DNA of 64,000 nucleotides from a bacterium (GTDB lineage Bacteria > UBA10199 > 2-02-FULL-44-16 > JAAZCA01): positions 50,262 through 114,261 of the forward strand of contig JBAZOP010000002.1 of assembly GCA_041648665.1 (NCBI GenBank), given 5' to 3'. Positions 35,690 to 55,425 of this stretch are shown here, piece after piece. Both the position numbers and the translations under genes were made by a program. The notes beneath the pieces are model-generated. The model saw nothing but the letters and a program-made list of their open reading frames with translations. It did no database searches and was not told where the DNA came from. Each line of letters opens with the position of its first letter. The first letter of the stretch is position 1.

Positions 35690-36217
35690 CTACACTCCGC
35701 CACGGGTGTTCCCTGACCCAGGCGTCACACTGGCATCCGATGATCTCTTCTTCCACAGACAGAAAAACTCGATCTCGCAATCCGTATCCGCGTCCACTGT
35801 CACGTGGAACCCAATGGTCGCACTCGCCTCCTTCTTCGGAGAAGCCAAAACAGGACAAAGGACAGACGCAGGAACCGTCACGTCTATCACGTCATACCCA
35901 GCCTTGTCCGCCAACGATGCTGCTACGCCGGTCAGGTCCGTCTTGGCAAGAATAGACCCCGCCAGCACGCCGCTACAATCCGTGCCAACTGCCGTATCTG
36001 TCAGATCCGCCGTACCGCCAAGACCACCGATATCCCATCCACACCCAGAAACGGTAACAACCTGCGAAGTATTCGTAAACACTCCCCACAACCCAACGAT
36101 TTCCACAGACCCGACTATATCAAAGCACTCATAAATGAGCGCCCCGCCGATAGCATCCCCTACCGCAACCGTTTTCGTTGACTTGTAGACAGGATCCGCT
36201 TCTGGATAGTACGTCAT
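35690..36217 (-). CDS. hypothetical protein (lower GC)
   Basis: 175-aa ORF. Confidence 0.4.
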   Translation of the reverse strand: MTYYPEADPVYKSTKTVAVGDAIGGALIYECFDIVGSVEIVGLWGVFTNTSQVVTVSGCGWDIGGLGGTADLTDTAVGTDCSGVLAGSILAKTDLTGVAASLADKAGYDVIDVTVPASVLCPVLASPKKEASATIGFHVTVDADTDCEIEFFCLWKKRSSDASVTPGSGNTRGGV

Positions 36218-36229
36218 GGCTCTACCTCG

Positions 36230-36562
36230 CTAGATGATGAATACATCTGACCCGTCGGTCTGCAATGTCACCGACGCTCCGTCCACGTTGATGACCAAAT
36301 CCAAGGCGGACCCCTCTATCAATTCCCCAGCCTCGGTCGCTACTGTAATGTTGTTCAACGACGCATTCATCCCGCTGTCCTTAACGGTGATCGTGTTCCC
36401 GCCCTTAGCAATCCACGCGGACTTCAGGTTGATCGTCACCGGAGCCGTTGCCGTATGGCTAACCAACAGCGTGGCCATGCGGTCATCCGCCAACACGTCA
36501 TAGGAAACCGCTGCAACATCGTAGTGCTCGTTGCGGATATATCGCTGTCCACCTCGCTCCAT
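36230..36562 (-). CDS. hypothetical protein (lower GC)
   Basis: 110-aa ORF. Confidence 0.4.
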   Translation of the reverse strand: MERGGQRYIRNEHYDVAAVSYDVLADDRMATLLVSHTATAPVTINLKSAWIAKGGNTITVKDSGMNASLNNITVATEAGELIEGSALDLVINVDGASVTLQTDGSDVFII

Positions 36563-39500
36563 TAGAACGCCTCCACTTCTGGGTCAATCACGTTATATCC
36601 GTCCACAATCAGATTCGTCACCGTAGCACCAATGTCGATGCCCAACCGGCAATGCGCCATCTTGATGTCCATCCCACCACCACCGGAATCGGTTATAGAT
36701 GGGTTAGCACCAGGGGTAGTTTTCCGAATCGTGCAATCGTATAGCACGGCGGGTGCGGTGTCGTCGTACAAATCAATCACTGGAAAATCACCCAGCATGA
36801 TAAGTGTACACCCAGATAGCTTATTGGAACTACCAAGGTGCCAGACATCTGTACCAGTACGAGTTGAACGGTAACATCTGATAAAGGTACACTTTTCAGC
36901 GCCACCAACCCCTCCAACCCGCGAACCCCAGCAATCCTCCCCGCCAACACAATCAGTGTACACCCCGTTGCATGAACCTGGGACAGCCGCACCGCCAGAA
37001 CCGAAGGAACGTTCACCCGCAGTACACCGAGTAACGCTGCCTTTGACCGTACAACACGCAACAGAATCAGCGGTAACGATGCACGATCCAAACGACCTAA
37101 CCCCGGCGTGACAATCAGTGGCGACCCCCTGGAACGCAGCCGTAACACCAGCAGGGGGGTTATTAGTCACACCAAAGCACCCGTCACCCCCTGTAACCCT
37201 ATTCAGAATAGCGTCACATAGCGCGTTGTTATCAACCGACGTACCGAAACATCCGTCCCCTCCAATGGTGTCCTCTATCGTCCCGCTGCAAGTTCCAGGG
37301 CTACTTGCACCATATCCAAAGGAATAATCCCCAGACTCGCAATGCTTGGCAGTTCCAGTAAACGACGCTGATGCGGGTTGCACAGTAGCAGCACCAAAGG
37401 AATAAATCCCAGCAACACAATGATCCAAATCGCCGCTACAAAGCATATCATACATCGTAGAATCATCAGCACCGCACCCAAAGCAACGCTCCGTTCCGAT
37501 GCAGTCAGACGCCTCTCCGCTGAAAGTGCTATGCCCATGTTCCGCATATCCGTAACTGTAGCCACGGGCCTCACAATCTACCATTGTCGCGGAGCACTCC
37601 GCGTTTCCACCAGTTCCAGGAGGAGCGCCGGTCAACACAGAAACACCAAACGCATAGTTGCCTGGAACAACACATCGAGTCAGCGTCCCAGCACACAACA
37701 CATTTCCACCATTGCTCGCAACACCAAAACTACATGTGCCAGCAACACAGTCCATTGCTGTACCATCAAACGTTGCCCCCACATCTGGACCTGAAGACGC
37801 GCCAAAGCTCAATGAACCCGCTGTACAATTCTTGTAAAGCCCAGTAGCAGAACCACCATAAATGAACCCGTTCAAGTCCGTGTGGCAATCGTACCATGCA
37901 GATGAACACGACACCCCCATAAGCATCACCGCATAAGGCGGCGATACACCGGTCCCACGGAAGAACAACTCCTTGAACACACTACTAGGACTATCCTTCC
38001 GCATCAACAAACAAGCCTGTCCAGGAGTAGTAGCTATTTTCAAAATGCCGATCCGCTCCATGCGACCGCTATCAGCATCCCACCCCAGATCTATCCCATC
38101 AGGCACCAAGATCCTGGTCGAAGGTGTGCGAGCATCCCCGGACGCCTCCAGCACAGGAGAACTCCCCGCGCCGACAACCGACACATACTCCTGATCCAGA
38201 TCCTTGCTGGCACCCATAACATAGGTTCCGCTCTGCAACTCAATGGTGAGCATGTTCGACGCGCTAAGTGCGACGCCTAACGAAACCCAGTTTGGAGCAC
38301 AATCATACGTGTGCTCGAACAGCCTCCACCCTGCTGTCGGATCGGAGGACAAATCCAACGACGCAGGAATCCTGACGCAATCGTGCGCTGAACGGTATTC
38401 GCTTTCCCCATTCCACCAGCCGCGACCGTAGGCTCCAAGATTATCCAACGTGAAACCGACGAAAGACAGCCCACCGAGATCGGGACACGCCATCGCCATG
38501 GTTACGAGTGACGACTCATCGAAGACGATCGCGTTGCAAGTCGTGTGGTACTGTGCATTGACACTAGGATCCGGACCCATCCCAAAGTAACTGTCGATCA
38601 GAGCCTTCGACCGATGGATCACCGCGCCCCTGACGTTTCCGTACCCGCCATCAACCCTACCGTAAGCGTACGGATTCCCAAAGATGTCCCTGTCAAAGTT
38701 TGCGAAGTACTCGCAGTCCTCCATCCAGTTGATCCTGCACACCCCACACATGAACACTGACGACCTCGCGGCATAGATATCGATACGGTTATCCTGAAAC
38801 CACCCACCAGGAACGTCACTGGTGTCAACGTGCGCACAGATCCACGAATGGTTCCCACCGTCATCTTGCGCTGGGCTGTCCTTCAAATAGAGTTTCATGA
38901 CCCTGGTGGCGTCCAACTCATCGGCAGTTCCGCTGGCGTCGTTGAAAACATAGAAGCTCTCACGGACAGCGCCATTGATCTCCACGACATGAAAATCCGG
39001 CATCGGGAAACCGCAGCCTGCGTTCGCGTTCTGAACCTGTATACTGCCATCAACCAGCCTGAACCCTTGCGGGTAATTGTCATCATGAATCTTCAACCCC
39101 GGTTCCCATCCCACAGATGGCTTGCGCACAAATCTGACCGTTGGCGCATCCTTGTCCGTAGCCAGCCCGTAGGTATTCCACAGCTGAGGATCAATCGTCC
39201 ACATGATGGCATTTGGCGTGGACAGCCGACAGTTGTCCCCCGTTATCGTGATGTGCATCCTCTGCGGAAGATACGTTGCCATCCCCTCGGCGTACACTCC
39301 GGGAGCAAGGTGGAACGTGAGGGGCTGCAAGAACACTGCAACATCCAACGGCCCAGGAATCGGTTGCGCATCACACGCCGCTTTGAACGTCTGGTACGGC
39401 TTCCCGATGGACCCGTCCCCCGTCACATCATTCCCGTCCACAGCGTCCACGTAGATCTCGCCGTTGCCGGTGATGGCCACGCTGCCTGTGATCGGCACCC

Positions 39501-39687
39501 ACGCACCGTTCATCCGCCCCACGAACTCGTTCGTCGTGGTGCTGTAGTACCATGTCCCATCGACGGGCACGCCGAGGCCGTCCTGCGTCGAGTCCCAGCG
39601 GTTGGCCAACACGAACGCCGTCGCCGCAGCGTCATCCACGAGGTTGCCGAGGAAGTTCTTGTTGCCGTAGGGATCTTGAAACGCCAT
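36562..39687 (-). CDS. Cys-rich-repeat tailspike / receptor-binding protein (1041 aa)
   Basis: More than 10 repeats of a C-x-G-x-(Y/R)SFG-type unit (GTCSFGVA, GIYSFGAAT, GDYSFGYGA, GDGCFGTS, GVRSFGSC, GERSFGSG). GC markedly lower at 36.6-38.9 kb. Confidence 0.5.
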   Translation of the reverse strand: MAFQDPYGNKNFLGNLVDDAAATAFVLANRWDSTQDGLGVPVDGTWYYSTTTNEFVGRMNGAWVPITGSVAITGNGEIYVDAVDGNDVTGDGSIGKPYQTFKAACDAQPIPGPLDVAVFLQPLTFHLAPGVYAEGMATYLPQRMHITITGDNCRLSTPNAIMWTIDPQLWNTYGLATDKDAPTVRFVRKPSVGWEPGLKIHDDNYPQGFRLVDGSIQVQNANAGCGFPMPDFHVVEINGAVRESFYVFNDASGTADELDATRVMKLYLKDSPAQDDGGNHSWICAHVDTSDVPGGWFQDNRIDIYAARSSVFMCGVCRINWMEDCEYFANFDRDIFGNPYAYGRVDGGYGNVRGAVIHRSKALIDSYFGMGPDPSVNAQYHTTCNAIVFDESSLVTMAMACPDLGGLSFVGFTLDNLGAYGRGWWNGESEYRSAHDCVRIPASLDLSSDPTAGWRLFEHTYDCAPNWVSLGVALSASNMLTIELQSGTYVMGASKDLDQEYVSVVGAGSSPVLEASGDARTPSTRILVPDGIDLGWDADSGRMERIGILKIATTPGQACLLMRKDSPSSVFKELFFRGTGVSPPYAVMLMGVSCSSAWYDCHTDLNGFIYGGSATGLYKNCTAGSLSFGASSGPDVGATFDGTAMDCVAGTCSFGVASNGGNVLCAGTLTRCVVPGNYAFGVSVLTGAPPGTGGNAECSATMVDCEARGYSYGYAEHGHSTFSGEASDCIGTERCFGCGADDSTMYDMLCSGDLDHCVAGIYSFGAATVQPASASFTGTAKHCESGDYSFGYGASSPGTCSGTIEDTIGGDGCFGTSVDNNALCDAILNRVTGGDGCFGVTNNPPAGVTAAFQGVATDCHAGVRSFGSCIVTADSVACCTVKGSVTRCTAGERSFGSGGAAVPGSCNGVYTDCVGGEDCWGSRVGGVGGAEKCTFIRCYRSTRTGTDVWHLGSSNKLSGCTLIMLGDFPVIDLYDDTAPAVLYDCTIRKTTPGANPSITDSGGGGMDIKMAHCRLGIDIGATVTNLIVDGYNVIDPEVEAF

Positions 39688-39704
39688 AGCGTCGTCCTCC
39701 TAAA

Positions 39705-42555: not shown

Positions 42556-42629
42556 GGCGATCTTACCATTTCACAAACAGGACGAGATGCCGCTTGACAT
42601 TCGCCCCAACGTGACCCATATTGTCTCCT

Positions 42630-42764
42630 ATGAGACGCGAAAACTTCAAGGTCAACCTGGATCCCGACTTGGCCGCCTGGCTCCGCGCCGAGGCCGCCCG
42701 CCGCCGCTGCTCCTTCTCGCAGGTCGTGCGGGAACTCATCGCCGCCGCCATGGCCCAAAAATGA
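42630..42764 (+). CDS. ribbon-helix-helix small protein (44 aa), translationally coupled to TnpB
   Basis: Hand-translated MRRENFKVNLDPDLAAWLRAEAARRRCSFSQVVRELIAAAMAQK. Its stop overlaps the tnpB ATG as ATGA. Confidence 0.45.
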   Translation: MRRENFKVNLDPDLAAWLRAEAARRRCSFSQVVRELIAAAMAQK

Positions 42765-43957
42765 TCCTGGCCCAGCGCATCCGGCTCGCCCCCAACAACG
42801 TCCAGGCGAGCTTCCTGGAGCGCTGCGCCGGTGCGGCCCGCTTCACCTACAACTGGGGCCTGGCCCGCTGGCAGGAAATCCACGCCGTCGGCGGCACGCC
42901 CTCCTGGCGCACCCTCAACGCCGAGATCAACGCCCGGAAGGACCGCGACCTGGGGTGGCTCCGCGATCTTCCATGGGCCGTCCCCAACACCGCCCTCGCC
43001 GACCTCGGGCGCGCCTTCGGCCACTTCTTCCGGCGGGTGAAGGCCGGCCAGCGCCCCGGCTACCCGCGCTTCAAGGCCAAGAAACGCTGCACCCCCGCCT
43101 TCGCCATCGAGGGCCGCGCGATCCACTTCGACGGCCGCCGCGTGCACCTCCCCAAGCTCGGCTGGGTGCGTACCCGCCAGCCCCCCCGCTTCCCCGGCCG
43201 CGTGCTGAGCGCACGCTTCTCGAAACACGCCGGCCACTGGGACCTCGCTATCCAAGTCGAGATCGACGAAACCCGCTGGACCTACCCCCACCGCTGCGAA
43301 ACCCAAGCAGCGGTCGGCGTGGACCTCGGCGTGGTCGACCTCGCCGTGCTCTCCACCGGCGAACACGTCCCGGCCCCCCGCAGCCTGCGGCACCACGCCG
43401 CCCAACTCCGGAGGTTGAACAAGGAACTGTCCCGCCGCACCCGCGGCGGCCAGAACTGGCAGAAAACGAAGGCGAAGCTCGGGCTCCTGCACGAGCACAT
43501 TGCCCACGTGCGGCACGCCGCCACCCACGCGCTGACCGCCTCCCTCGTCCACCACTTCCGCTGGATCGGCATCGAGGACCTGCACGTCGCCGCGATGATG
43601 CGAGGAAGGCTCGCCACCTCCCTCCAGGATGCCGCGATGGCCGAGGTTCGCCGTCAACTCGCTTACAAGGCGCCCCTCGCCGGGAGCACCGTGGTCGTCG
43701 CCGACCGCTTCTACCCGAGCAGCAAGACGTGCGCCACCTGCGGCGTCATCTACGCCGACCTCGCCCTGAACGAGCGCCGGTGGACCTGCGAAAGCTGCGG
43801 GGCCGAGCACGACCGCGACGAGAACGCCGCCGAGAACCTGTACCAATTGGCCGCCGCCCAGGCGGTGACAGCCTGCCGCCACGAGAGCGCTGGCGCCCTT
43901 CGGGACGCGCAACTCTCGCTTGGGCAGGAATCGGGCCACGCTGTTAGCTTCGGTTAG
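42761..43957 (+). CDS. tnpB: TnpB (OrfB) RuvC-like endonuclease, IS200/IS605 family
   Basis: AVGVDLGVVD, IGIEDLHV, CATCG...CESCG, HDRDENAAENL. The catalytic triad is intact. Start at MILAQRIRL; the track extension is upstream junk. Confidence 0.8.
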   Translation: MILAQRIRLAPNNVQASFLERCAGAARFTYNWGLARWQEIHAVGGTPSWRTLNAEINARKDRDLGWLRDLPWAVPNTALADLGRAFGHFFRRVKAGQRPGYPRFKAKKRCTPAFAIEGRAIHFDGRRVHLPKLGWVRTRQPPRFPGRVLSARFSKHAGHWDLAIQVEIDETRWTYPHRCETQAAVGVDLGVVDLAVLSTGEHVPAPRSLRHHAAQLRRLNKELSRRTRGGQNWQKTKAKLGLLHEHIAHVRHAATHALTASLVHHFRWIGIEDLHVAAMMRGRLATSLQDAAMAEVRRQLAYKAPLAGSTVVVADRFYPSSKTCATCGVIYADLALNERRWTCESCGAEHDRDENAAENLYQLAAAQAVTACRHESAGALRDAQLSLGQESGHAVSFG

Positions 43958-47567: not shown

Positions 47568-50500
47568 TCAGCCTCCCAGTACAACCTCTCCACCCGACCC
47601 AACCTTGCCGCGGGTGATGAGGTCGCTCTTCGCGATGGTTTCCGTGTTCGCGCGGATCTTGTCCAGGATCGCGCGCTGCTTCGCGCTCTCGTTGATGATG
47701 GCCATGGTCACCCCGGCCATCCCGGGGATGTTCAGCATGGCGCGCATCTGGGCCTTCACGTCCTCGGTTTTTCCCTCCACCGTCACCGTGCTCTGGAGCG
47801 ACCCGCCGAAGTCGCGCATCATCATGTTCGCCACGTCTGCCAGCAAGCTCTTCTTCCGCGCCAACTCCTCCATCTTGGCCTTGTAGGCGTCGAACGTCGC
47901 GTACACCGAGGCGTCCAGGGTGTCGTTCACCGCCTGGGTCACCAGATCCACGCTCGTCGTGATCCCGCTAGCGAAAGACTCCATCAGCGCCATGCCAGCG
48001 TTGAACGCCGGATCAGCCGGTCCTCCAGCTCCAACGTTTGCCAATGGTCCGTCCAGAATCGGAGAATGTGACGTCAGGCGATCCGCCACCGTCTGCGCAG
48101 CGATATCCGCTCCCTTTACCATCGCATCAATGCTCGGCTGTTCAGTCATGCCACCGGCGAACCCCAGGCTGACTTCTGCACCGGCATTCATCGCGCCCAC
48201 CGCTGCCTGCCCGAACGCCTCGCTCACCTTCTGCGCGGCAGCCTGCGCTGCAAGCTGCGCCTGCGATTCCACGTTGGTCAACCGCTGCTGGGCCTCCTCC
48301 ATCTGGATCTTCGCCTCGGCCCGGACCTCTTCCTGGCGGATGATCAAGTCCATGGCCTTCTTCACACCGACCGTCAGCGCATCGTCCTTGATGCCAGCAG
48401 CACCGGCTGACTTCGTGATCTGCGCCTGTACCCCCTTCAAGACGGCAGACGCCTTCGCTGCCTCCGTCTCGGCTTGCGTCAGCGCCGATAGCCCTTCTGG
48501 TGTAGTAATGTCCTTCCCCTGCAACCCCGACAGGGCCTTCTTGGCTTCCGCTTCCTGGTGAGCAGCCACTGACAACTTGTCCGCCTGCGCCTGCCACCCA
48601 GCCATCCACTTCTGTTCACGCTCGACCTGTTTCTTACCCTTCTTCTCGCCCGCGATGTCCGCGCCAGTGCCGATGCCAAACGCCTCCAGCGCGCCCGTTG
48701 CAGCCACCCCCTGCCCTTCCACCATCGCTGTCCAATTCTTCTTGTGCTTTTCAAACCCTTCCTTCACCTGCGCAAGACGGTCTTGCATATCCTTGGCCCG
48801 CTCTGATGCAAGTTTCGCTTCTAATTCTTTTCCCTTCTTCTCTGCGTACTCTGGATATGCCAACTGCAATACAATATCCTGCAACCCAACAGACACTTCC
48901 TGGATGAACTTCTGCACCTTCAGCGCGAACCCGTGGATGTAGTTGCGCATCGACTCCAGCATGTTGGAGAAGTACCGCGAGATCGAGACATCGCCTTCCT
49001 GGGATGCCTGATCCATTCCGCTTCCAAACATACCAGCAATGGTCTGTGTCAACCCTACTGTGCTCACTCCGGCGATCCGGATTGCTCCCTCTCCAGCGGT
49101 CATGATGCTATCACGAGCACGTCCAATCCATTTGGCCGTGGTCGTTGCCCACGATGTATCCAATTCAGCCGAATCGAACGTCGCCAGTTCATTCAAAGCC
49201 GCTTTGCGGTACTCTACGCTCTGAAGCGCGATCTGCTGCGACACCGCCGTAGACGCGCGGATACCGTTGGCGATGCCACTCACCAGCGATGATCCAGCGT
49301 CCTCCCCGGCACCCTCCAGGTTTATGTCTTTTACCAAAGACTTCGACTTTTTTACCGCATGCTCCATCCCATCATCGAAGTTATTCTTGAAGTTGTACCA
49401 CCAGTCTTCGATGGCCCATCCTGCGTCCTGCAACCCCTCCTTCACGTTGAGTTTGAACTCGCTGAACTCGGGGTCCTTCTGCAACCCATCCCACCACCCC
49501 TTGATGCTGTCGCCCATCCCGGAGAAGCTGTCCTTCACGTCCTCCCACGTCCATGAGTCCCACCACTCCGAAACGCTGTCCACGACCTCCTTGCCCAGCC
49601 CCCACAGCATCTTGCCCAGGCCCTTGGCCGCCTCCCAGATGGCGCCCCCCAGGTTCTCGATGAACTTGGTCCCAGCCTTCCCAAGCTCCCCTTCTGCTTC
49701 CTTGCCAGTGATCCACCCCCAGATGGCCTTGGGGATGAACGTGAGTGCATTCCACACGAAGCTACCGATGCTCTTTCCCACCTGCGCCCAATCGATCTTG
49801 GCCAGAAAATCGCGGATCTTTCCCGCAAGTCCTCCCACCCAATCGAGTGCTTTGGAAAAGACCTTACCCAGGTCCATCCCCCTCTTGGAAAGCATCTTTA
49901 TGCCGACCACGACGCCGCCAATCACTAACCCGATGAGTCCTAGCTTTCCAATGAATCCACCCAGTCCCCGTGTGAGCAATCCACCCGGCCCAGTCAGGAT
50001 GGACAACTGGCCGAACAACGACATGACTGGCCCCGCCGACGTTGCCACCGACCCCAACGCCGATCCTGCCAGCTCAACGATGGCCGAGAACTTGGCCATC
50101 TCCTTGTTGGACCCCTCCAAGTCCATGATCAACCCTCTGAACCCCAGCTGGTTCGCCGCCGACAGCCGCTTGATCAGCGGCCCCCATGTCTCGTCCGACG
50201 CCAGCTGCTTGGTCTGCGCTGCCACCTCGTTGTAGGCCCGCCCCATGTCTCCCACGAACCGCACCACGTCCTTGCGGGCGATAGCCCGGAACTTGGTCTC
50301 GAAGCTGGACTTCATGAGGTCCATCGACTCCTGGAGCGTGCGGCCCGTGCTGAACGCCTGGTTGGCGTAGTCCTTCAGCGAGAACTTGCCATCCGACGTG
50401 ATCTTGCTGACCCGCTCCAGCGCCTTGGCGCCAGAATCCCCGCGCTGCGCGAGGTACCCCAGCCCGTTCGCCGCCTCGCCCAGCGCCCCGCTGAGTTCAG

Positions 50501-51530
50501 ACAGCATGGCCTGCTGCTGCGCACCACCCGTGCCGAAGCGATCGAACACCCCCTGGAGCAACTGCGTGCCCTTCACCGCGTCGCGCGACCCCACCTCGAT
50601 GATGTTCACCGCCTCGTCCATCCCCACGCCCAGCTTGGTCATCCATTGGAACAGCGGAGAGTCATCAAGGGACCCGATGCCGTACTTCATCGCCCGCTCA
50701 ATCGCAACCGCCTGATCCGCGAACATCTGGGCCGTCTGCTGGCCCAACTGGACCGCCTCCTCCTCGCTGCTGCCCATGGACCGGAACGCGCCCGAGAGGC
50801 GCACGGTGGACTCGGTGAGCGCCATCATCTCGTCGCCGCTACGCCGCATCTCCGGGGGCACCTTCTCGAACGTCTTGGCCAGGCCCTCCAGGTTGCCCTT
50901 GAGCTTCTTGAGCGGTTCCACGCCCACGCCCGCCTTGCGTCCCAAGTCGGTCAAGCGATTGATGTACTTGACCTCGTCCGCCGCGCTGGCCTGCCACCAC
51001 GCCCCCAGGCCGCCCATGGCGTCGGTCAGCTGGTCCATCTCGATCCCGGTCGTCTCCGTGATCTTCACCCAGTCCTTGGCCGAGTACCCCAGCGCGTCCA
51101 GCGCCTCCTTGGCAGGCCCCGTCGCCTGGTTCATCCCCTTGAACACCTTCGCCACCGTCTCCGCGCCGACGTTCAGCGAGATCGCCATCGACGAGATCTG
51201 GCCCGTCATCCGCCGGGCTTCCTTGCCCGTCAGGTTCAGGGATGCCACAAACGGCTTGGCCGCCTTGGCGTTGGCCACGGCCATCGCCTCCAGGCTGTTG
51301 GTCAGGTTGCCCGTGTCGCCCGTCAGGGAGCGCACATCCGACGCGATGGAGGCGATGTTGAACTGCTTGATGCTCTCGAAGAACCCCGGGACGTCCGACT
51401 TCTTGGCGATCTTGGACTGGGTCTCCATCGTGTCGTTGAGCTTGTCCATGCTGGACTGCGCCGACGACATGGCGGCCTTCATCCCCACGTCCCGCGCCCC
51501 CATGCCCCATGAGATGCCCAGCAGGTTCAC
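47568..51530 (-). CDS. tail tape-measure protein (1320 aa)
   Basis: Very long helical, Ala/Gly/Lys-rich ORF directly downstream of the chaperone frameshift pair. GTG start with SD GGTAGGAGG. Confidence 0.8.
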   Translation of the reverse strand: MNLLGISWGMGARDVGMKAAMSSAQSSMDKLNDTMETQSKIAKKSDVPGFFESIKQFNIASIASDVRSLTGDTGNLTNSLEAMAVANAKAAKPFVASLNLTGKEARRMTGQISSMAISLNVGAETVAKVFKGMNQATGPAKEALDALGYSAKDWVKITETTGIEMDQLTDAMGGLGAWWQASAADEVKYINRLTDLGRKAGVGVEPLKKLKGNLEGLAKTFEKVPPEMRRSGDEMMALTESTVRLSGAFRSMGSSEEEAVQLGQQTAQMFADQAVAIERAMKYGIGSLDDSPLFQWMTKLGVGMDEAVNIIEVGSRDAVKGTQLLQGVFDRFGTGGAQQQAMLSELSGALGEAANGLGYLAQRGDSGAKALERVSKITSDGKFSLKDYANQAFSTGRTLQESMDLMKSSFETKFRAIARKDVVRFVGDMGRAYNEVAAQTKQLASDETWGPLIKRLSAANQLGFRGLIMDLEGSNKEMAKFSAIVELAGSALGSVATSAGPVMSLFGQLSILTGPGGLLTRGLGGFIGKLGLIGLVIGGVVVGIKMLSKRGMDLGKVFSKALDWVGGLAGKIRDFLAKIDWAQVGKSIGSFVWNALTFIPKAIWGWITGKEAEGELGKAGTKFIENLGGAIWEAAKGLGKMLWGLGKEVVDSVSEWWDSWTWEDVKDSFSGMGDSIKGWWDGLQKDPEFSEFKLNVKEGLQDAGWAIEDWWYNFKNNFDDGMEHAVKKSKSLVKDINLEGAGEDAGSSLVSGIANGIRASTAVSQQIALQSVEYRKAALNELATFDSAELDTSWATTTAKWIGRARDSIMTAGEGAIRIAGVSTVGLTQTIAGMFGSGMDQASQEGDVSISRYFSNMLESMRNYIHGFALKVQKFIQEVSVGLQDIVLQLAYPEYAEKKGKELEAKLASERAKDMQDRLAQVKEGFEKHKKNWTAMVEGQGVAATGALEAFGIGTGADIAGEKKGKKQVEREQKWMAGWQAQADKLSVAAHQEAEAKKALSGLQGKDITTPEGLSALTQAETEAAKASAVLKGVQAQITKSAGAAGIKDDALTVGVKKAMDLIIRQEEVRAEAKIQMEEAQQRLTNVESQAQLAAQAAAQKVSEAFGQAAVGAMNAGAEVSLGFAGGMTEQPSIDAMVKGADIAAQTVADRLTSHSPILDGPLANVGAGGPADPAFNAGMALMESFASGITTSVDLVTQAVNDTLDASVYATFDAYKAKMEELARKKSLLADVANMMMRDFGGSLQSTVTVEGKTEDVKAQMRAMLNIPGMAGVTMAIINESAKQRAILDKIRANTETIAKSDLITRGKVGSGGEVVLGG

Positions 51531-51563
51531 CGATGCCTCCTACCAGCGAACACGTGTGCGCTC

Positions 51564-52609
51564 CTACCTTCGCCTGCGCGCATGCCGCCGCGCGGATGCC
51601 GCCTGCTGCTCCGCCTGGGAGCGCCGCGACTCTTCGAGGCGCCCCTTCTGCTCCACGAACCGCTTGCGGCGGCTGTATGGCATGCCCATGATGCTGTCGT
51701 AGGTGCCACCTTGCAGCTCCATGAGGAAGAACACCTCGCTCTCCTGCGCCGCTAGGGCGCCGAGGGGAAGAAAAAACTGGGCTGCCCCAGGTTCAAGTCG
51801 TCCCGCCACTCATGCTGACACGACGGACACGCAAAGTCTACTACCGTGTCCACGTGGCCTTCGTACTGCTCGAAGAGGGCCCGGATCTCGTTGCGGTCCC
51901 GCGTGGGGAGCCCCTTCAGGCACGCCATGGCCTCCTTGTGCTTCCGATCGCGCTCGACGGGCACGCCGTCGATGGCCTCCACGCGCGTCAGCAGCCCCAG
52001 CGTCAGCGTGTCCTCCTTGCGCTTGCCCTTCGCGCTCAGCCACTCCTCGTCCGCCGCGGTCATGACGTGCCAGCGCACCACGCGCCCGGAGGACAGCGTG
52101 TGCTCCCACACCCGCTGCGTCCGATCCTGCATCGGCCGGATCTCGACCTGCGCGAGGTCCAGCGTGTAGCGCACCTCGTCGCGGCATTCCGGGCTGGGGC
52201 ACTGCACCTTGACCTCGTACTGGTCGCCCAGTGACACGCGCCGGATGGCCAGGAGGGCCACCATGCGATCGCTGGCCGTCAGCGCCGCCACCGCTGCGTT
52301 GAGCGCCGCCCGATCATCGATGTTGCCAAGCCGGTGCGTGCAGTTCAGGATGATCTGGTTGAGCCGCTGAAGCACCGGGCCCTTCGCCGTCAGCAGGTCC
52401 TCCTCGTACCCCGTCATCTCGCCCACCACCAGCTCGCTGTGCACGCTCCCCTCCCGGTCCAGGTAGCCGCACGGCAGCTCCACCGTCAGCACGGTGGGGC
52501 GGATATCGGACCGATCCCAGTCCTGCTGCACCGCTGCCAGCTTCTCCTTGGTCGGCACGATCGGCGCCTCCGGCGCCCCCTGCTCGCCCTTCTGATCCTG
52601 ATCCGTCAT
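51564..52609 (-). CDS. tail assembly chaperone frameshift fusion product (GT-like, via -1 PRF)
   Basis: A -1 slip at T_TTT_TTC joins the 285-aa frame to FFLPLGALAAQESEVFF...RRHARRRR*, which ends 34 nt before the TMP start. Confidence 0.45.
51752..52609 (-). CDS. tail assembly chaperone (G-like, 285 aa, with CxxC...CxxC zinc ribbon)
   Basis: Ends ...QPSFFFPSAP* at the slippery site. Overlaps the -1 frame ORF 51564..51809. Confidence 0.5.
   Translation of the reverse strand: MTDQDQKGEQGAPEAPIVPTKEKLAAVQQDWDRSDIRPTVLTVELPCGYLDREGSVHSELVVGEMTGYEEDLLTAKGPVLQRLNQIILNCTHRLGNIDDRAALNAAVAALTASDRMVALLAIRRVSLGDQYEVKVQCPSPECRDEVRYTLDLAQVEIRPMQDRTQRVWEHTLSSGRVVRWHVMTAADEEWLSAKGKRKEDTLTLGLLTRVEAIDGVPVERDRKHKEAMACLKGLPTRDRNEIRALFEQYEGHVDTVVDFACPSCQHEWRDDLNLGQPSFFFPSAP
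51770..51776 (-). promoter_or_regulatory. -1 programmed ribosomal frameshift slippery heptamer T_TTT_TTC
   Basis: Minus strand CCC AGT TTT TTC TTC. The zero frame stops 8 codons later and the -1 frame continues for 70 codons. Confidence 0.55.
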
Positions 52610-52803
52610 TGCTCTTGCACCTTTCTATGTGCCCGCTGCGCATCCAGCGACAGCAGCTCTGCTTCGGCGCGGCGCTCCTGCCGCACCCAGCCGACGATCA
52701 ACTCGCGCACCACGTCCGAGAGCGACCGCCCCAGGCGATCCGCGCGATCCCGGAACTCCACCAGCACGTCCTCTTGGATTTCCATATTGAGCCTCGACAT
52801 GCT
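52606..52803 (-). CDS. ribbon-helix-helix (CopG/Arc-like) protein heading the tail operon
   Basis: MSRLNMEIQEDVLVEFRDRADRLGRSLSDVVRELIVGWV. SD GGAGGTAGC. ATGA overlap with the chaperone gene. Confidence 0.55.
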   Translation of the reverse strand, partial: SMSRLNMEIQEDVLVEFRDRADRLGRSLSDVVRELIVGWVRQERRAEAELLSLDAQRAHRKVQEQ

Positions 52804-52814
52804 ACCTCCTGCGC

Positions 52815-52848
52815 ACAGTCTACGCATGATCTGCGCACGCGGTCAACC
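52815..52848 (-). promoter_or_regulatory. promoter, TTGACC, 18 nt, TAGACT, with flanking TGCGCA...TGTGCGCA inverted repeat (possible RHH operator)
   Basis: GGTTGACCGCGTGCGCAGATCATGCGTAGACTGTGCGCAGGAGG on the minus strand. Confidence 0.4.
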
Positions 52849-52876
52849 ATCCGGCCCCAAAAAAGTGCAGGCATAG

Positions 52877-52906
52877 GGTTGACAAACGCAATGGAGGCAT
52901 TATTAT
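52877..52906 (+). promoter_or_regulatory. plus-strand promoter, TTGACA, 16 nt, TATTAT (conserved motif family, only plus-oriented copy)
   Basis: GGTTGACAAACGCAATGGAGGCATTATTATAG. Diverges from the RHH/tail promoter. Confidence 0.5.
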
Positions 52907-52954
52907 AGTCCCAAGATGCCGGGCGCTAAGCCCAGGCCAACCGAGGAGGATCCA

Positions 52955-53092
52955 ATGAAGATCGAACGCATCCGACGCCGGGTCATGCAGATCACCTACG
53001 ACGGCCGCTCCCCGGAGATGGAGGCCCGGGCCAGCGCGCTCGCGCTCGCGCTGGGCGCGCGCGGCTACACCGTGACGCTGGTGAAAGCGTAG
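52955..53092 (+). CDS. small protein (45 aa)
   Basis: Hand-translated MKIERIRRRVMQITYDGRSPEMEARASALALALGARGYTVTLVKA with SD GAGGAGG. Below the ORF-track size cutoff. Confidence 0.4.
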   Translation: MKIERIRRRVMQITYDGRSPEMEARASALALALGARGYTVTLVKA

Positions 53093-53169
53093 GGAACTGG
53101 ACGCGCACACGTGTGCGCATGATCGTGCCCACAACGGTGCCACGCACCGTTCAACCAGGAGGAGAAGCC

Positions 53170-53958
53170 ATGAACGAGACCGAGACCCCCAAGACGATCG
53201 ACGGGCTGATCGTGGAGCTGCAGGAGGCCGAGGAGCGCCGCGACGACGCCCTGGCCGACTACGGCCGCGTGCTCCAGGAGAAGCTGGCGCTGGAGGCGAC
53301 CTGCGAGACCCTGCAGGTGCTCGTGGCCTCCGCCGAGGGGGCCGCCACGGGGTACAAGGCCGCGGTCGCCGACCTCGCGGCCCGGCTCCAGCTGGCCGAG
53401 GCCGAGCGCGACGCGCGCGCCCTGGACGAGGAGTGGCGGGCCAAGCGCATCGAGATCCAGAAGCTCCGCGACAAGTGCGAGCAGATGCGCAAGAACCTGA
53501 TCGCCGTGGACGCCCGGGCGGACGAGCGGTACGAGGCGCGCGTCGTCGAGATCTGCGCCGAGCGCGACCGGGCCATCGCCGCCGCCCAGGCCGACGCAGC
53601 TGCCCAGATCGCCACCGCGGAGGCCGGCGTCGCGGAGCGCATCGCCACGATCCGGGCCGAGGCCGCCCAGACCATCACCGAGCGCTGCGCCCAGTCCGAT
53701 GCCGCCGCGCGGCTGGCCACGGTCGCGCACGGGGAGGCCGACGCCCGGGCCGCCGCCGCCACGCAGCGGGCCGAGATCGCGGAGCGCAACCTGGCCATGG
53801 TCCGCCAGGCCAACGTCCACCGGGTCGATGCCCTTCGGGACGCGGTGGCCCTGACGTTCGCCTGGGAGCGGCGCGACACGCGAAAGGTCAAGTCGGCGGA
53901 CGACCTGATGCAGCAGCTCCAGAAGACGCTGTACCAGGCGATCGCCGTGGCGCGGTAG
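53170..53958 (+). CDS. coiled-coil protein (263 aa)
   Basis: Start MNETETPK with SD AGGAGGAG. The palindrome GCGCACACGTGTGCGC lies about 50 nt upstream. Ala/Glu/Arg-rich heptad-like sequence. Confidence 0.5.
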   Translation: MNETETPKTIDGLIVELQEAEERRDDALADYGRVLQEKLALEATCETLQVLVASAEGAATGYKAAVADLAARLQLAEAERDARALDEEWRAKRIEIQKLRDKCEQMRKNLIAVDARADERYEARVVEICAERDRAIAAAQADAAAQIATAEAGVAERIATIRAEAAQTITERCAQSDAAARLATVAHGEADARAAAATQRAEIAERNLAMVRQANVHRVDALRDAVALTFAWERRDTRKVKSADDLMQQLQKTLYQAIAVAR

Positions 53959-54029
53959 GTGCGGAGGATCCCCCCTCCCCCTGGGCAGAACCTGCGAGGT
54001 CCGGCATGGCCGGGCGAAGGAGAAGAAAG

Positions 54030-54251
54030 ATGGACCGCAGCGACTTGGGAACCGACACGACCCTGGTGATCAACCTCGACGCCGAGATCTGGGCGGCCTG
54101 CCCCGACGAGCCCCTCAGCGCGGCCCCCCCGCTGCGCCTGGCGCCCGACCTGCGCTGGCGCGACCTCTACGACGAGGACGAGCCGGGATGCCTGTTCGAC
54201 CGCTACCCGCGCACCGGCCGGGCCCGCAGCCGCCGGCGGCACGCCGCGTAA
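54030..54251 (+). CDS. hypothetical small protein (73 aa)
   Basis: Strong SD GGCGAAGGAGAAGAAAG before ATG (MDRSDLG). Confidence 0.45.
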   Translation: MDRSDLGTDTTLVINLDAEIWAACPDEPLSAAPPLRLAPDLRWRDLYDEDEPGCLFDRYPRTGRARSRRRHAA

Positions 54252-54254
54252 CCA

Positions 54255-54659
54255 CTACTGCGCAGGAGACAGCACGGGATCGGCGGCTGGATCGACGGTG
54301 GGATCGGGGGCGGGCCCGGGCGCCTCCTCGGCCTGGGCCATGCCCCGCAGGGCGGTCCGCACGGACGCGGCGCTGGCGCCGCTCACCTTGCCGCCCACCC
54401 GCTGGAGGCAGTTCACGATCACGGGGTAGAGCGCCTGCCGCAGCTCCGCCAGGACGGCCCCCGCGTCCCCCTCCTTGCCCACCACGGCCTGGAGGCGGGG
54501 CTTGACCTGGCTCCCTCCCAGCAGCGCCTCCAGGAGGCGCTCCACCTCCGCCTGGCTGGTGCGGAACGCGGGCGCGCCCTCCTCCAAGGACTCCTGGCGG
54601 GGCTCCCGAGTGGACTCCCGCATGAGCTGCCGCAACTGCCGTGCCTTCTCCGTCAACAT
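54255..54659 (-). CDS. hypothetical protein
   Basis: 134-aa ORF. Confidence 0.4.
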   Translation of the reverse strand: MLTEKARQLRQLMRESTREPRQESLEEGAPAFRTSQAEVERLLEALLGGSQVKPRLQAVVGKEGDAGAVLAELRQALYPVIVNCLQRVGGKVSGASAASVRTALRGMAQAEEAPGPAPDPTVDPAADPVLSPAQ

Positions 54660-54681
54660 CGTCGCACCGTCCTTTCGTTCA

Positions 54682-55425
54682 CTAGCTGCGGGCCGCGCCC
54701 TTCAGCTCGCGCGCGCCCTTGGAGAGCACCCCTGCCGACACCGTGGCCCCGGCCGCCGCCAGCGCCTTGGCCACCAGCGCCTCCAGCGGGCCCTGGATCA
54801 TGCCCGCGAACATCTGCGCCTGCCCCTCGTCGTCGAAGGTCCGGGTGAGCAGCACCTCCAGCTTGGGCGCCCCCAGCATGGCCTCCGCCATCCGCCCCAC
54901 GACGCCCGCGCTGACCGCCTCGTCCACGCCATCCAGCTCGCGCAGGATGTCCTCGAAGCGAACCCCCATTGGGGCGCGCGCCGGAGCGGATGGCGCAGCA
55001 GCACCGGGCCTCTGGGCAACTGTCTTCTTCTCTGCCTTCCTCTTTTTCTCCCGAGCCTTGTTCACTTTGAGCAAGGTATTTTTTTGCCCCCGTTCAAAGT
55101 GACCGACCACACTGGCCTTCACACACTTCCCGAAGACCATCTTCATTCCAGGCGGACACCCGCGCCCCAGCGCCTCGTCCATCTCCTCCTGCGTCGCCCC
55201 CGGAGCCGCCCCCTTGGCCCGGGCGATCTTGGCGCACAGCGCCTCCGGGTCGTCCACGCCGCCCTTACAGCGCATAAACTCGACGCAGCTCTGGAAGCGC
55301 TCCCCCTTCTCCCCCTTGAACCGGCCCGTCTCCGAGTCGATGTACTTGGCCTTGCACGGCTCGTCGGCCTCGGCCATCAGCACTTCCACCTCGACCTGCT
55401 CCAGGATCTCTCGCATGCTTCCCAT
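54682..55425 (-). CDS. Lys/Ala-rich protein (paralogue of 58320..59156)
   Basis: Shares PG(M/T)KMVFGK(C/I)VK and an acidic N-terminus (VEVLMAEADE vs ALALLMEADGD). Confidence 0.45.
   Translation of the reverse strand: MGSMREILEQVEVEVLMAEADEPCKAKYIDSETGRFKGEKGERFQSCVEFMRCKGGVDDPEALCAKIARAKGAAPGATQEEMDEALGRGCPPGMKMVFGKCVKASVVGHFERGQKNTLLKVNKAREKKRKAEKKTVAQRPGAAAPSAPARAPMGVRFEDILRELDGVDEAVSAGVVGRMAEAMLGAPKLEVLLTRTFDDEGQAQMFAGMIQGPLEALVAKALAAAGATVSAGVLSKGARELKGAARS

What the first reader, a model, noticed from the sequence alone, without database searches (positions are those of the whole stretch)
52606..54251. RHH protein at the head of the tail operon facing a divergent plus-strand mini-operon (switch-like locus)
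A CopG/Arc-like RHH gene (52606..52803) is the first cistron of the chaperone-TMP-baseplate operon and is driven by TTGACC-18-TAGACT flanked by TGCGCA...TGTGCGCA dyads. Eighty nt away the only plus-oriented copy of the conserved promoter motif drives a 45-aa ORF, a 263-aa coiled-coil protein and a 73-aa ORF. A palindrome copy lies in between (53103). This arrangement resembles an immunity or late-gene control switch rather than a plain structural-operon promoter. With RHH proteins also preceding the replication gene and TnpB, RHH factors may be the main regulators of this phage.
Basis: partly seen in the sequence, partly recalled or inferred. Interest (0 to 1): 0.55.

Follow-up and report, generated by a model that had tools for sequence, protein, structure and literature searches.

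The report
Self-regulated tail-operon promoter beside accessory island
A small Arc-like DNA-binding protein heads the tail-hub operon of an uncultivated large phage and probably represses its own promoter, while the opposite-strand genes next to it are a swappable accessory-gene island, so this is not a lysis/lysogeny switch.

Summary
A 64-aa ribbon-helix-helix (RHH) gene (52606..52800, minus) overlaps by ATGA the start of a gp26-like tail assembly chaperone, followed by the tape-measure and baseplate genes. It has its own sigma70-like promoter (TTGACC-18-TAGACT). 32 nt away sits the only plus-strand copy of the window's conserved promoter motif GTTGACAAACGC, which precedes three real genes (45, 262 and 73 aa).

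About 20 related metagenomic phages change the interpretation. The RHH, its promoter and an array of 3-5 hexamers (TGnGyA, 11-bp period) running from the promoter spacer towards the start codon are conserved. Such hexamer pairs occur almost nowhere else in about 270 kb. This fits Arc/CopG/ParG-style autorepression of the tail-hub operon.

The opposite-strand block is mosaic cargo between conserved flanks, resembling T4-type hyperplastic regions with repeated promoter cassettes. No hexamer array covers its promoter. One relative keeps the RHH and hexamers with a co-directional upstream block. An immunity switch of the P22 immI type is therefore not supported.

The palindrome at 53103 belongs to a separate CGAAC-N4-GTTCG family of intercistronic sites whose function is unexplained.

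Verdict: new variant of a known kind, moderate interest. Nothing is tested experimentally.

The parts
52606..52800 (-). RHH (Arc/ParG-like) gene, 64 aa; first cistron of the tail-hub operon; its stop overlaps the next start codon (ATGA)
   Evidence: phrog_6506 Arc-like 4.6e-6. PDB profile hits Arc 9e-5 and ParG 3.6e-4. AF2 pLDDT 89 with strand-helix-helix. Foldseek top hits are all RHH proteins. Conserved and syntenic in relatives. Synonymous codon differences equal or exceed non-synonymous ones.
52817..52846 (-). P_RHH: sigma70-like promoter TTGACC-N18-TAGACT
   Evidence: TTGACn-N18-TAnnnT is conserved in 10 of 11 close relatives. It is the only intergenic sigma70-like site on the coding strand in 24-64 kb.
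52810..52837 (-). Candidate RHH operator: TGCGCA-N5-TGCGTA-N5-TGCGCA, 11-bp period, covering the spacer, the -10 element and the start site
   Evidence: Unique triple in the window; 0.03 in-phase pairs expected. In-phase TGnGyA hexamers sit at the same promoter positions in relatives. Such pairs are almost confined to RHH promoters across about 270 kb.
52878..52906 (+). P_island: the only plus-strand copy of the conserved promoter class (GTTGACAAACGC ... TATTAT)
   Evidence: The other five exact copies precede non-structural genes at 3.8-20 kb.
52918..52937 (+). GC-rich hairpin near the 5' end of the island leader, after AGATG, as in four other promoters of this class
   Evidence: MFE folds; predicted only.
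52955..53092 (+). p45, small island gene of unknown function
   Evidence: Homologues at 53-62% identity occupy the same island position in L010, L023 and L024. GC3 0.93. No family hit.
53103..53118 (.). 16-bp perfect palindrome GCGCACACGTGTGCGC, member of the CGAAC-N4-GTTCG-type intercistronic family
   Evidence: In L010 a copy also lies at the p45 / next-gene junction, overlapping the start of that gene as called.
53170..53958 (+). cc262, a protein predicted as one long helix; rare family
   Evidence: AF2 predicts a single helix over residues 10-233. Only about four homologues were found. One is in the island of L025; another lies in a co-directional early-type block in L026.
54030..54251 (+). 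p73, acidic protein with an EPG(S/C)LF motif; the distal gene of the island
   Evidence: The same family ends the island in L001, L022, L023 and L024. Its stop lies 3 nt from the stop of the convergent gene.
54255..54659 (-). Conserved 134-aa gene forming the left flank of the island; convergent with p73, no terminator found between them
51752..52609 (-). gp26-like tail assembly chaperone / baseplate hub protein (285 aa), second cistron
   Evidence: PF12322 6.6e-14 and phrog_150 1e-15.
51564..51809 (-). -1 frame ORF overlapping the chaperone 3' end, with slippery T_TTT_TTC at 51776-51770: candidate G/GT-type frameshift product
   Evidence: Homologous overlapping ORFs are present in 16 relatives.
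51546..51561 (.). Palindrome copy 15 nt upstream of the tape-measure start codon
   Evidence: A palindrome with the same or compensated arms lies at the syntenic site in every clade examined.
47568..51530 (-). Tape measure protein (1320 aa), followed by baseplate genes

Best explanation
The locus holds two adjacent but functionally separate units.

(1) The tail-hub operon (RHH, gp26-like chaperone with a -1 frameshift extension, tape measure, baseplate) has its own host-type promoter, P_RHH. The RHH protein, made first and translationally coupled to the chaperone, binds as several dimers. Its targets are three in-phase hexamers (TGCGCA/TGCGTA/TGCGCA, 11-bp period, one face of the helix) covering the promoter spacer, the -10 element and the start site. 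It thereby represses its own operon, as Arc, CopG and ParG do. The likely effect is to hold expression of the low-copy tail-hub proteins at a set level, independent of genome copy number and of upstream transcription. The invariant C-terminal helix probably mediates contacts between dimers, as in Mnt.

(2) The plus-strand block (p45, palindrome, cc262, p73) is a hyperplastic accessory-gene island. It is driven by the phage's general, presumably early, promoter class GTTGACAAACGC plus a leader hairpin. It sits here because the autonomous P_RHH makes a transcriptional break where foreign cassettes are tolerated.

Shown here: gene reality, RHH fold, synteny, promoter and hexamer conservation, cargo variability.
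Inferred: DNA binding to the hexamers, repression, timing, and the reason for the location.
For: - RHH identity: phrog_6506 at 4.6e-6. PDB profile hits to Arc (9e-5), ParG (3.6e-4) and Mnt (0.06). AF2 pLDDT 89, and Foldseek hits are RHH proteins only. G24-R25-S26 and R3/N5/E7 are invariant.
- Coupling: the ATGA or longer overlap with the chaperone start is conserved.
- Promoter: TTGACn-N18-TAnnnT occurs in 10 of 11 relatives.
- Hexamers: they are in phase at the same promoter positions in relatives, while the spacers between them diverge. L004 and L011 have four in phase, plus a fifth TGCGCA at the start codon.
- Specificity: TGnG[CT]A-N5-TGnG[CT]A pairs in about 270 kb fall at RHH promoters except for one hit. 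In the window the triple is unique, against 0.03 pairs expected.
- Precedent: ParG, with ribbon KRVNVNFD against RLNVE here, binds arrays of ACTC boxes in direct or inverted orientation downstream of its -10 and multimerises cooperatively (PMC3413123). TGAGTA is the reverse complement of TACTCA.
- Depth of the association: an RHH lies upstream of the chaperone even in relatives with about 30% chaperone identity (L013, L019; an HNH plus tandem-RHH fusion in L014-16).
- Independence from the island: L026 keeps the RHH, promoter and hexamers with a co-directional upstream block.
- Island variability and multiple promoter copies. The PeSL analogy is from PMC4122927.
Against: - No binding or expression data exist.
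- The second hexamer overlaps the -10 element and the third approaches the Shine-Dalgarno site, so part of their conservation may reflect promoter or ribosome-site constraints rather than an operator.
- The third hexamer is poor in L001, L010 and L023.
- The pattern was defined after looking at the sequences.
- A glutamate (E7) at a base-facing ribbon position is unusual for DNA contact.
- Autorepression of a structural operon that needs late expression is counter-intuitive.
- 'Early' timing of the GTTGACAAACGC class rests only on the kind of genes it precedes.
- Only 64 of 161 kb of the genome could be searched for further RHH sites.
Confidence: 0.55

Rival explanations
1. True bidirectional switch of the P22 immI type. 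RHH bound at the intergenic region represses both P_RHH and the back-to-back P_island. Accessory (early) genes are then shut off when tail-hub expression starts.
For: - The two -35 elements are only 32 nt apart.
- The back-to-back arrangement recurs in 13 non-redundant relatives.
- Arc represses two divergent promoters in P22 (own knowledge).
- Cooperative RHH arrays can spread (PMC3413123).
Against: - No in-phase hexamers lie over or near P_island in any locus.
- The spacing between promoters varies from 19 to about 51 nt and the sequence between them is not conserved.
- L026 lacks the divergent arrangement but keeps the RHH and hexamers.
- Island cargo is variable and holds no regulator.
Confidence: 0.17
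2. RHH is an antitoxin-like adaptor. Its long, invariant C-terminal helix binds a partner protein, for example the co-translated gp26-like chaperone. Repression would then depend on free partner, coupling transcription of the tail-hub operon to assembly state.
For: - The best full-length structural match is a ParD-type antitoxin with a C-terminal partner-binding helix (7etr_B, TM 0.73).
- Residues 40-56 are more conserved than the DNA-binding part.
- The start/stop overlap with the chaperone is conserved.
Against: - The downstream gene is not a toxin family.
- The chaperone N-terminus is poorly conserved; matches in several relatives start at residue 35.
- In L003 a 411-aa mobile-element ORF separates RHH and chaperone.
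- The C-terminal helix could equally serve tetramerisation, as in Mnt.
Confidence: 0.1
3. The hexamers are only promoter architecture (spacer and extended -10 features). RHH acts elsewhere, for example on sites in the unseen 97 kb of the genome, or on the CGAAC-N4-GTTCG palindromes.
For: - The second hexamer overlaps the -10 element.
- The TGTG preceding TAnnnT is reminiscent of upstream -10 extensions.
- Palindromes occur in the same clades that have a clear RHH.
Against: - The first hexamer and the hexamers downstream of the start site have no promoter role, yet stay in phase.
- Orientation can flip while the period is kept (L007, L009, L026), which is typical of RHH subsites.
- Palindrome arms do not match TGnGyA, and the palindrome centres differ between clades independently of the RHH ribbon.
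Confidence: 0.1

Closest known systems
P22 Arc (arc-ant operon, immI region)
   Same: A small RHH encoded as the first cistron of the operon it represses. Its operator lies between -35 and -10. Adjacent dimers bind about one helical turn apart. The unit is embedded among late/tail genes next to accessory cargo. There is profile similarity to Arc.
   Different: There is no Mnt partner and no antirepressor. The repressed operon is structural (chaperone, tape measure, baseplate). The array has 3-5 direct or inverted hexamers rather than one 21-bp dyad. No evidence shows the divergent promoter is controlled.
ParG (plasmid TP228) and CopG (pMV158) autoregulators
   Same: Arrays of short boxes bound cooperatively by single RHH dimers around or downstream of the -10 element of their own operon, with direct or inverted boxes tolerated (PMC3413123). 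The ribbon R-x-N-x-E/N resembles ParG's. The TGAGTA boxes of several relatives contain the ParG ACTC core on the other strand.
   Different: The period is 11 bp rather than 8. There is no ParA partner and no replication gene. The setting is a phage tail operon.
SvtR of archaeal virus SIRV1
   Same: A viral RHH that represses its own gene and a virion structural gene (own knowledge; 2kel is among the Foldseek hits).
   Different: It is an archaeal virus, and the RHH is neither the first cistron of a tail operon nor translationally coupled to one.
PeSL-flanked hyperplastic regions of T4-type phages
   Same: Variable ORFan cargo between conserved core genes, with repeated composite early-promoter plus stem-loop motifs at cassette borders (PMC4122927, PMC2839356). 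Here there are 1-3 GTTGACAAACG[CG] promoters per island, together with leader hairpins and palindromes.
   Different: The motif sequence is unrelated. The island is inverted relative to the surrounding late genes. Recombination at the motifs is inferred, not shown.

Membership tests
Ribbon-helix-helix (Arc/MetJ/CopG) superfamily | N-terminal strand followed by two helices | tested here: met
   AF2 model with pLDDT 89: extended residues 1-9, helix 10-23, helix 27-63. Foldseek top hits are Arc, CopG, CdbA and RHH antitoxins at probability 0.9-1.0, though E-values are weak because the protein is small.
Ribbon-helix-helix (Arc/MetJ/CopG) superfamily | Significant sequence-profile match to RHH families | tested here: inconclusive
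   PHROG Arc-like 4.6e-6. PDB profile hits Arc 9e-5 and ParG 3.6e-4. Pfam ParG, RHH_1 and FitA-like are all below their curated cut-offs. Precomputed Pfam hits RHH_1 and RHH_5 are recorded for close homologues (marked weak where the mark is given).
Ribbon-helix-helix (Arc/MetJ/CopG) superfamily | G-x-S/T/N turn between helix A and helix B | tested here: met
   G24-R25-S26 is invariant in 12 sequences.
Ribbon-helix-helix (Arc/MetJ/CopG) superfamily | Dimer binds repeated DNA subsites through the paired strands | not testable with these tools
   Only candidate sites were found: in-phase TGnGyA hexamers.
P22 immI-type switch (Arc/Mnt/Ant) | Two divergently transcribed RHH repressors | tested here: not met
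   The island proteins p45, cc262 and p73 give no RHH hit.
P22 immI-type switch (Arc/Mnt/Ant) | Antirepressor as the regulated cargo | tested here: not met
   No Ant-like domain was found. The cargo differs between relatives.
P22 immI-type switch (Arc/Mnt/Ant) | Operator shared by both divergent promoters | tested here: not met
   Hexamer pairs occur only over P_RHH. The spacing between promoters is variable.
Type II toxin-antitoxin module with RHH antitoxin | Toxin gene immediately downstream of the antitoxin | tested here: not met
   The downstream gene is PF12322 / phrog_150, a tail hub or chaperone protein.
ParFG-type partition cassette | ParA-family ATPase adjacent to the RHH gene | tested here: not met
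   The neighbouring genes show no ParA domain.
PeSL-type hyperplastic region (the plus-strand island) | Variable gene content between conserved flanks in close relatives | tested here: met
   The gap between the m134 homologue and the RHH is 0.5-3.2 kb and holds different gene families.
PeSL-type hyperplastic region (the plus-strand island) | Repeated promoter plus stem-loop motif at cassette borders | tested here: inconclusive
   There are 1-3 exact promoter motifs per island, leader hairpins and palindromes 17-20 nt upstream of two promoters. Recombination breakpoints at these motifs were not mapped.
LexA 'Cheo box' (the 53103 palindrome family) | CGAAC-N4-GTTCG consensus | tested here: met
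   The consensus itself is from own knowledge.
LexA 'Cheo box' (the 53103 palindrome family) | Site overlaps a promoter and is bound by host LexA | not testable with these tools
   Most copies lie in short intercistronic gaps rather than over promoters. The host is unknown.

The most novel reading that the evidence does not exclude
The RHH is an assembly-coupled early/late switch. Its invariant C-terminal helix senses the co-translated gp26-like chaperone or tape-measure complex, so that repression of the tail-hub promoter, and possibly of the neighbouring early-type accessory promoter, depends on how much unassembled hub protein is present. This would be a structural-operon analogue of the conditional cooperativity seen in toxin-antitoxin systems.
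Probability: 0.1. Interest if true: 0.65.

Novelty: new variant of a known kind. Interest (0 to 1): 0.4.

Why it matters
If confirmed, this would be a clear case of a tailed phage placing its tail-hub and tape-measure module under a dedicated Arc/ParG-like autorepressor. The arrangement is conserved across an uncultivated clade of large myoviruses whose contigs reach about 160-195 kb. It would bear on how such phages set the ratio of low-copy hub proteins to abundant sheath and tube proteins.

It also marks a predictable hot spot where these phages carry swappable accessory genes: lipoproteins, DUF3846 and HARP-like proteins, and a GHKL-like ATPase. That spot is useful for mining host-interaction or anti-defence genes.

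The comparative footprint gives a directly testable operator.

Tried and rejected
- DNA and protein searches of the region and of the tape measure against 50,697 phage records found nothing.
- The chaperone found only Streptomyces phage BRock at 27% identity, and BRock has no RHH upstream of it.
- A scan of genome contigs with the chaperone found no relative, so the host could not be named.
- The viral-contig scan with cc262 found nothing.
- Homology search with p73 returned only itself.
- PADLOC gave no defence-system hit for island proteins.
- Rfam gave no RNA family in 51400-54800.
- Extending the contig beyond the window failed.
- RHH binding to the 16-bp palindrome was considered and rejected. 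The arms do not match TGnGyA, and the centre differs between clades independently of the RHH ribbon.
- A pure RNA-hairpin role for the palindrome is disfavoured. Positions 4 and 13 vary independently in the window: 5 of 10 copies are symmetric, and 0.5 is the expected fraction.
- Residue 8 of the RHH (I, M or C) tracks the hexamer type (TGCGCA, TGTGTx or TGAGyA). This cannot be separated from phylogeny, and the Arc alignment places that residue facing the protein core.
- The plus-strand terminator-like site at 55055 is within chance expectation.
Full report
**Context.** The window has 66% G+C and is phage-like, with nearly all genes on the minus strand. The RHH protein is identical to a hypothetical protein of an NCBI metagenome-assembled 'bacterium', on a 161-kb contig. 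Public gene calls there show the order: sheath, two gp19-like tube genes, an amidase, several unknown genes, three opposite-strand genes, RHH, a PF12322 protein, a 1320-aa tape measure, baseplate V and W/gp25 genes, and an opposite-strand TnpB. Positions 20-64 kb are structural. Positions 1-20 kb hold non-structural genes such as a NAPRTase, a radical SAM protein and a metallophosphatase.

**Observation check.**
- The RHH CDS is 52606..52800 (64 aa). Its stop overlaps the start of the 285-aa gp26-like protein (ATGA).
- P_RHH is TTGACC-18-TAGACT.
- GTTGACAAACGC has six exact copies. Five are on the minus strand within 3.8-20 kb, and one is on the plus strand at 52878. Each has a TATAAT-like -10 element.
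- The plus-strand genes have strong ribosome sites and GC3 of 0.93-0.98.
- cc262 is predicted as a single 224-residue helix.
- The tool's scan found P_RHH as the only intergenic sigma70-like promoter on the coding strand between 24 and 64 kb.

**The RHH protein.**
- It matches the PHROG Arc-like repressor family (4.6e-6) and sits just under the Pfam cut-offs for ParG and RHH_1.
- A profile of 12 homologues hits Arc, ParG and Mnt chains in the PDB.
- The AlphaFold model (pLDDT 89) is strand, helix, long helix. Its Foldseek neighbours are all RHH proteins.
- The G-R-S turn and ribbon residues R3, N5 and E7 are invariant. So is a charged C-terminal helix, residues 40-56.
- Codon comparisons show purifying selection, for example 24 synonymous against 19 non-synonymous differences versus L004.

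**Comparative evidence.** Nineteen IMG/VR loci and seven further contigs were examined.
- The RHH lies directly upstream of the chaperone, usually overlapping its start, in all close relatives.
- It is also there in distant relatives. L013 and L019 have single RHH genes. L014-16 have a 177-aa fusion of an HNH-like domain with two RHH repeats.
- It is absent in L012, L017/18 and Streptomyces phage BRock, where the chaperone follows the tube gene directly.
- The RHH therefore belongs to the tail-hub module.

**Promoter and candidate operator.** Anchored on the -35 element, 10 of 11 close relatives show TTGACn, 18 nt, TAnnnT.
- The first hexamer, TGnGnn, starts 3 nt after the -35. The second, TGnGTA, overlaps the -10. 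The third, TGnGCA, lies at the start site. All are at an 11-bp period, while the bases between them diverge.
- The L002, L003, L004 and L011 group extends the array to five hexamers, reaching the start codon.
- L006 has two direct TGAGTA copies. L007, L009 and L026 have one copy inverted at the same or double period.
- The strict pattern TGnG[CT]A-N5-TGnG[CT]A, in any orientation, was searched in about 270 kb of window plus loci. Hits fell in the 60 nt before an RHH start in 11 loci, and only once elsewhere.
- In the window the triple is unique, with 0.03 pairs expected.
- This is the arrangement RHH autoregulators use. ParG, whose ribbon resembles this one, coats arrays of ACTC boxes in either orientation at its own promoter (PMC3413123).
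- I therefore read 52810-52837 as the RHH operator and the RHH as an autorepressor of the tail-hub operon. This is an inference from sequence.

**The plus-strand block.** In relatives, the space between the conserved 134-aa gene and the RHH is 0.5-3.2 kb and always runs opposite to the structural genes. Its content is mosaic:
- a lipoprotein with D/T/S repeats;
- a protein of about 470 aa with a GHKL-like N-box (my reading of the sequence, no family hit);
- DUF3846 and HARP-motif proteins;
- a conserved family of about 160 aa;
- p45;
- the p73 family, which usually ends the island.

Each island starts with GTTGACAAACG[CG] next to P_RHH, and some contain two or three such promoters. L022 has only the p73-family gene. 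In L026 the cc262 homologue lies in a long co-directional block with a topoisomerase and an S-AdoMet lyase. That block runs straight into an RHH gene with its own promoter and hexamers.

The island is therefore a hyperplastic accessory region comparable to the PeSL-flanked regions of T4-type phages (PMC4122927). It is not one half of a dedicated switch. No hexamer array covers its promoter, and the inter-promoter distance and sequence are not conserved.

**The palindrome.** The copy at 53103 is one of ten GCG[A/C]ACACGTGT[G/T]CGC sites, against 1.7 expected. They lie in short gaps between genes in both the early and late regions.
- A palindrome with the same arms lies just before the tape-measure start in every clade, but with a clade-specific centre: ACGT, CCGG, TCAA or TCCA. 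L026 has compensated arms, CCGCAC...GTGCGG.
- Each clade carries several copies of its own variant.
- The arms fit the Gram-positive/actinobacterial LexA box CGAAC-N4-GTTCG (own knowledge).
- Independent variation of the two half-sites in the window argues for a dimeric protein site over a hairpin.
- The factor is unknown.
- This is a separate feature from the RHH system.

**Verdict.** The best-supported model is an Arc/ParG-like autorepressor dedicated to the tail-hub operon, next to a swappable accessory island under the phage's general promoter class. It is a new variant of a known kind, uncharacterised in any cultured phage searched. Interest is moderate.

Noticed in passing
window 7458, 8494, 18859, 21243, 29726, 35672, 44459, 51546, 53103, 58298; L001:7037, L022:7198, L023:4147, L024:5620, L002-4:6958, L006:7080, L007:7056, L009:7065, L026:12227: A family of 16-bp palindromes of the CGAAC-N4-GTTCG type lies in short intercistronic gaps, always including the junction just before the tape-measure gene. 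The centre is clade-specific and the arms match the LexA 'Cheo box' consensus. The half-sites vary independently, which favours a protein site. The binding factor and function are unknown.
   Followed up: partly
window 42594-43957 (+): A second plus-strand unit sits inside the baseplate region. A 44-aa RHH (42630..42764) overlaps by ATGA the start of an IS605-type TnpB (42761..43957), and the unit has its own TTGACA-17-CATATT promoter.
   Followed up: partly
window 51770-51776 (-) and ORF 51564..51809 (-): A slippery T_TTT_TTC lies near the 3' end of the gp26-like gene (its stop is at 51752), with an overlapping -1 frame ORF conserved in 16 relatives. This is a candidate G/GT-type programmed frameshift in a myovirus-like tail module.
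   Followed up: partly
window leaders downstream of the promoters at 924, 7426, 10882, 18830 and 52878: Five of the seven GTTGACAAAC-type promoters examined (six exact copies plus a variant at 924) are followed by (A/G)GATGC and a 6-7-bp GC-rich hairpin within about 25 nt of the predicted start. This could be a 5' stabiliser or a nut/boxB-like element.
   Followed up: partly
L003:4699-5934: A 411-aa ORF with RRXRR-like and RuvC-like motifs (my reading of the sequence, suggesting an IscB-like mobile element) is inserted between the RHH gene and the chaperone gene in one relative.
   Followed up: no
L014:5453-5986, L015:5451-5987, L016:5453-5986: In distant relatives the gene upstream of the chaperone encodes a 177-aa fusion of an HNH-like zinc-finger domain with two tandem RHH repeats, possibly a single-chain RHH dimer.
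   Followed up: no
window 54249-54257: The island's last gene and the conserved 134-aa late gene converge with stops 3 nt apart and no terminator. The same tight junction occurs in L001 and L022-24, so early and late transcripts should overlap in antisense.
   Followed up: partly
window 36000-39700: A stretch of about 3.7 kb has only 53-55% G+C, against 66% overall, and contains no ORF with the genome's high-GC3 coding signature. It may be foreign or non-coding DNA within the tail region.
   Followed up: no
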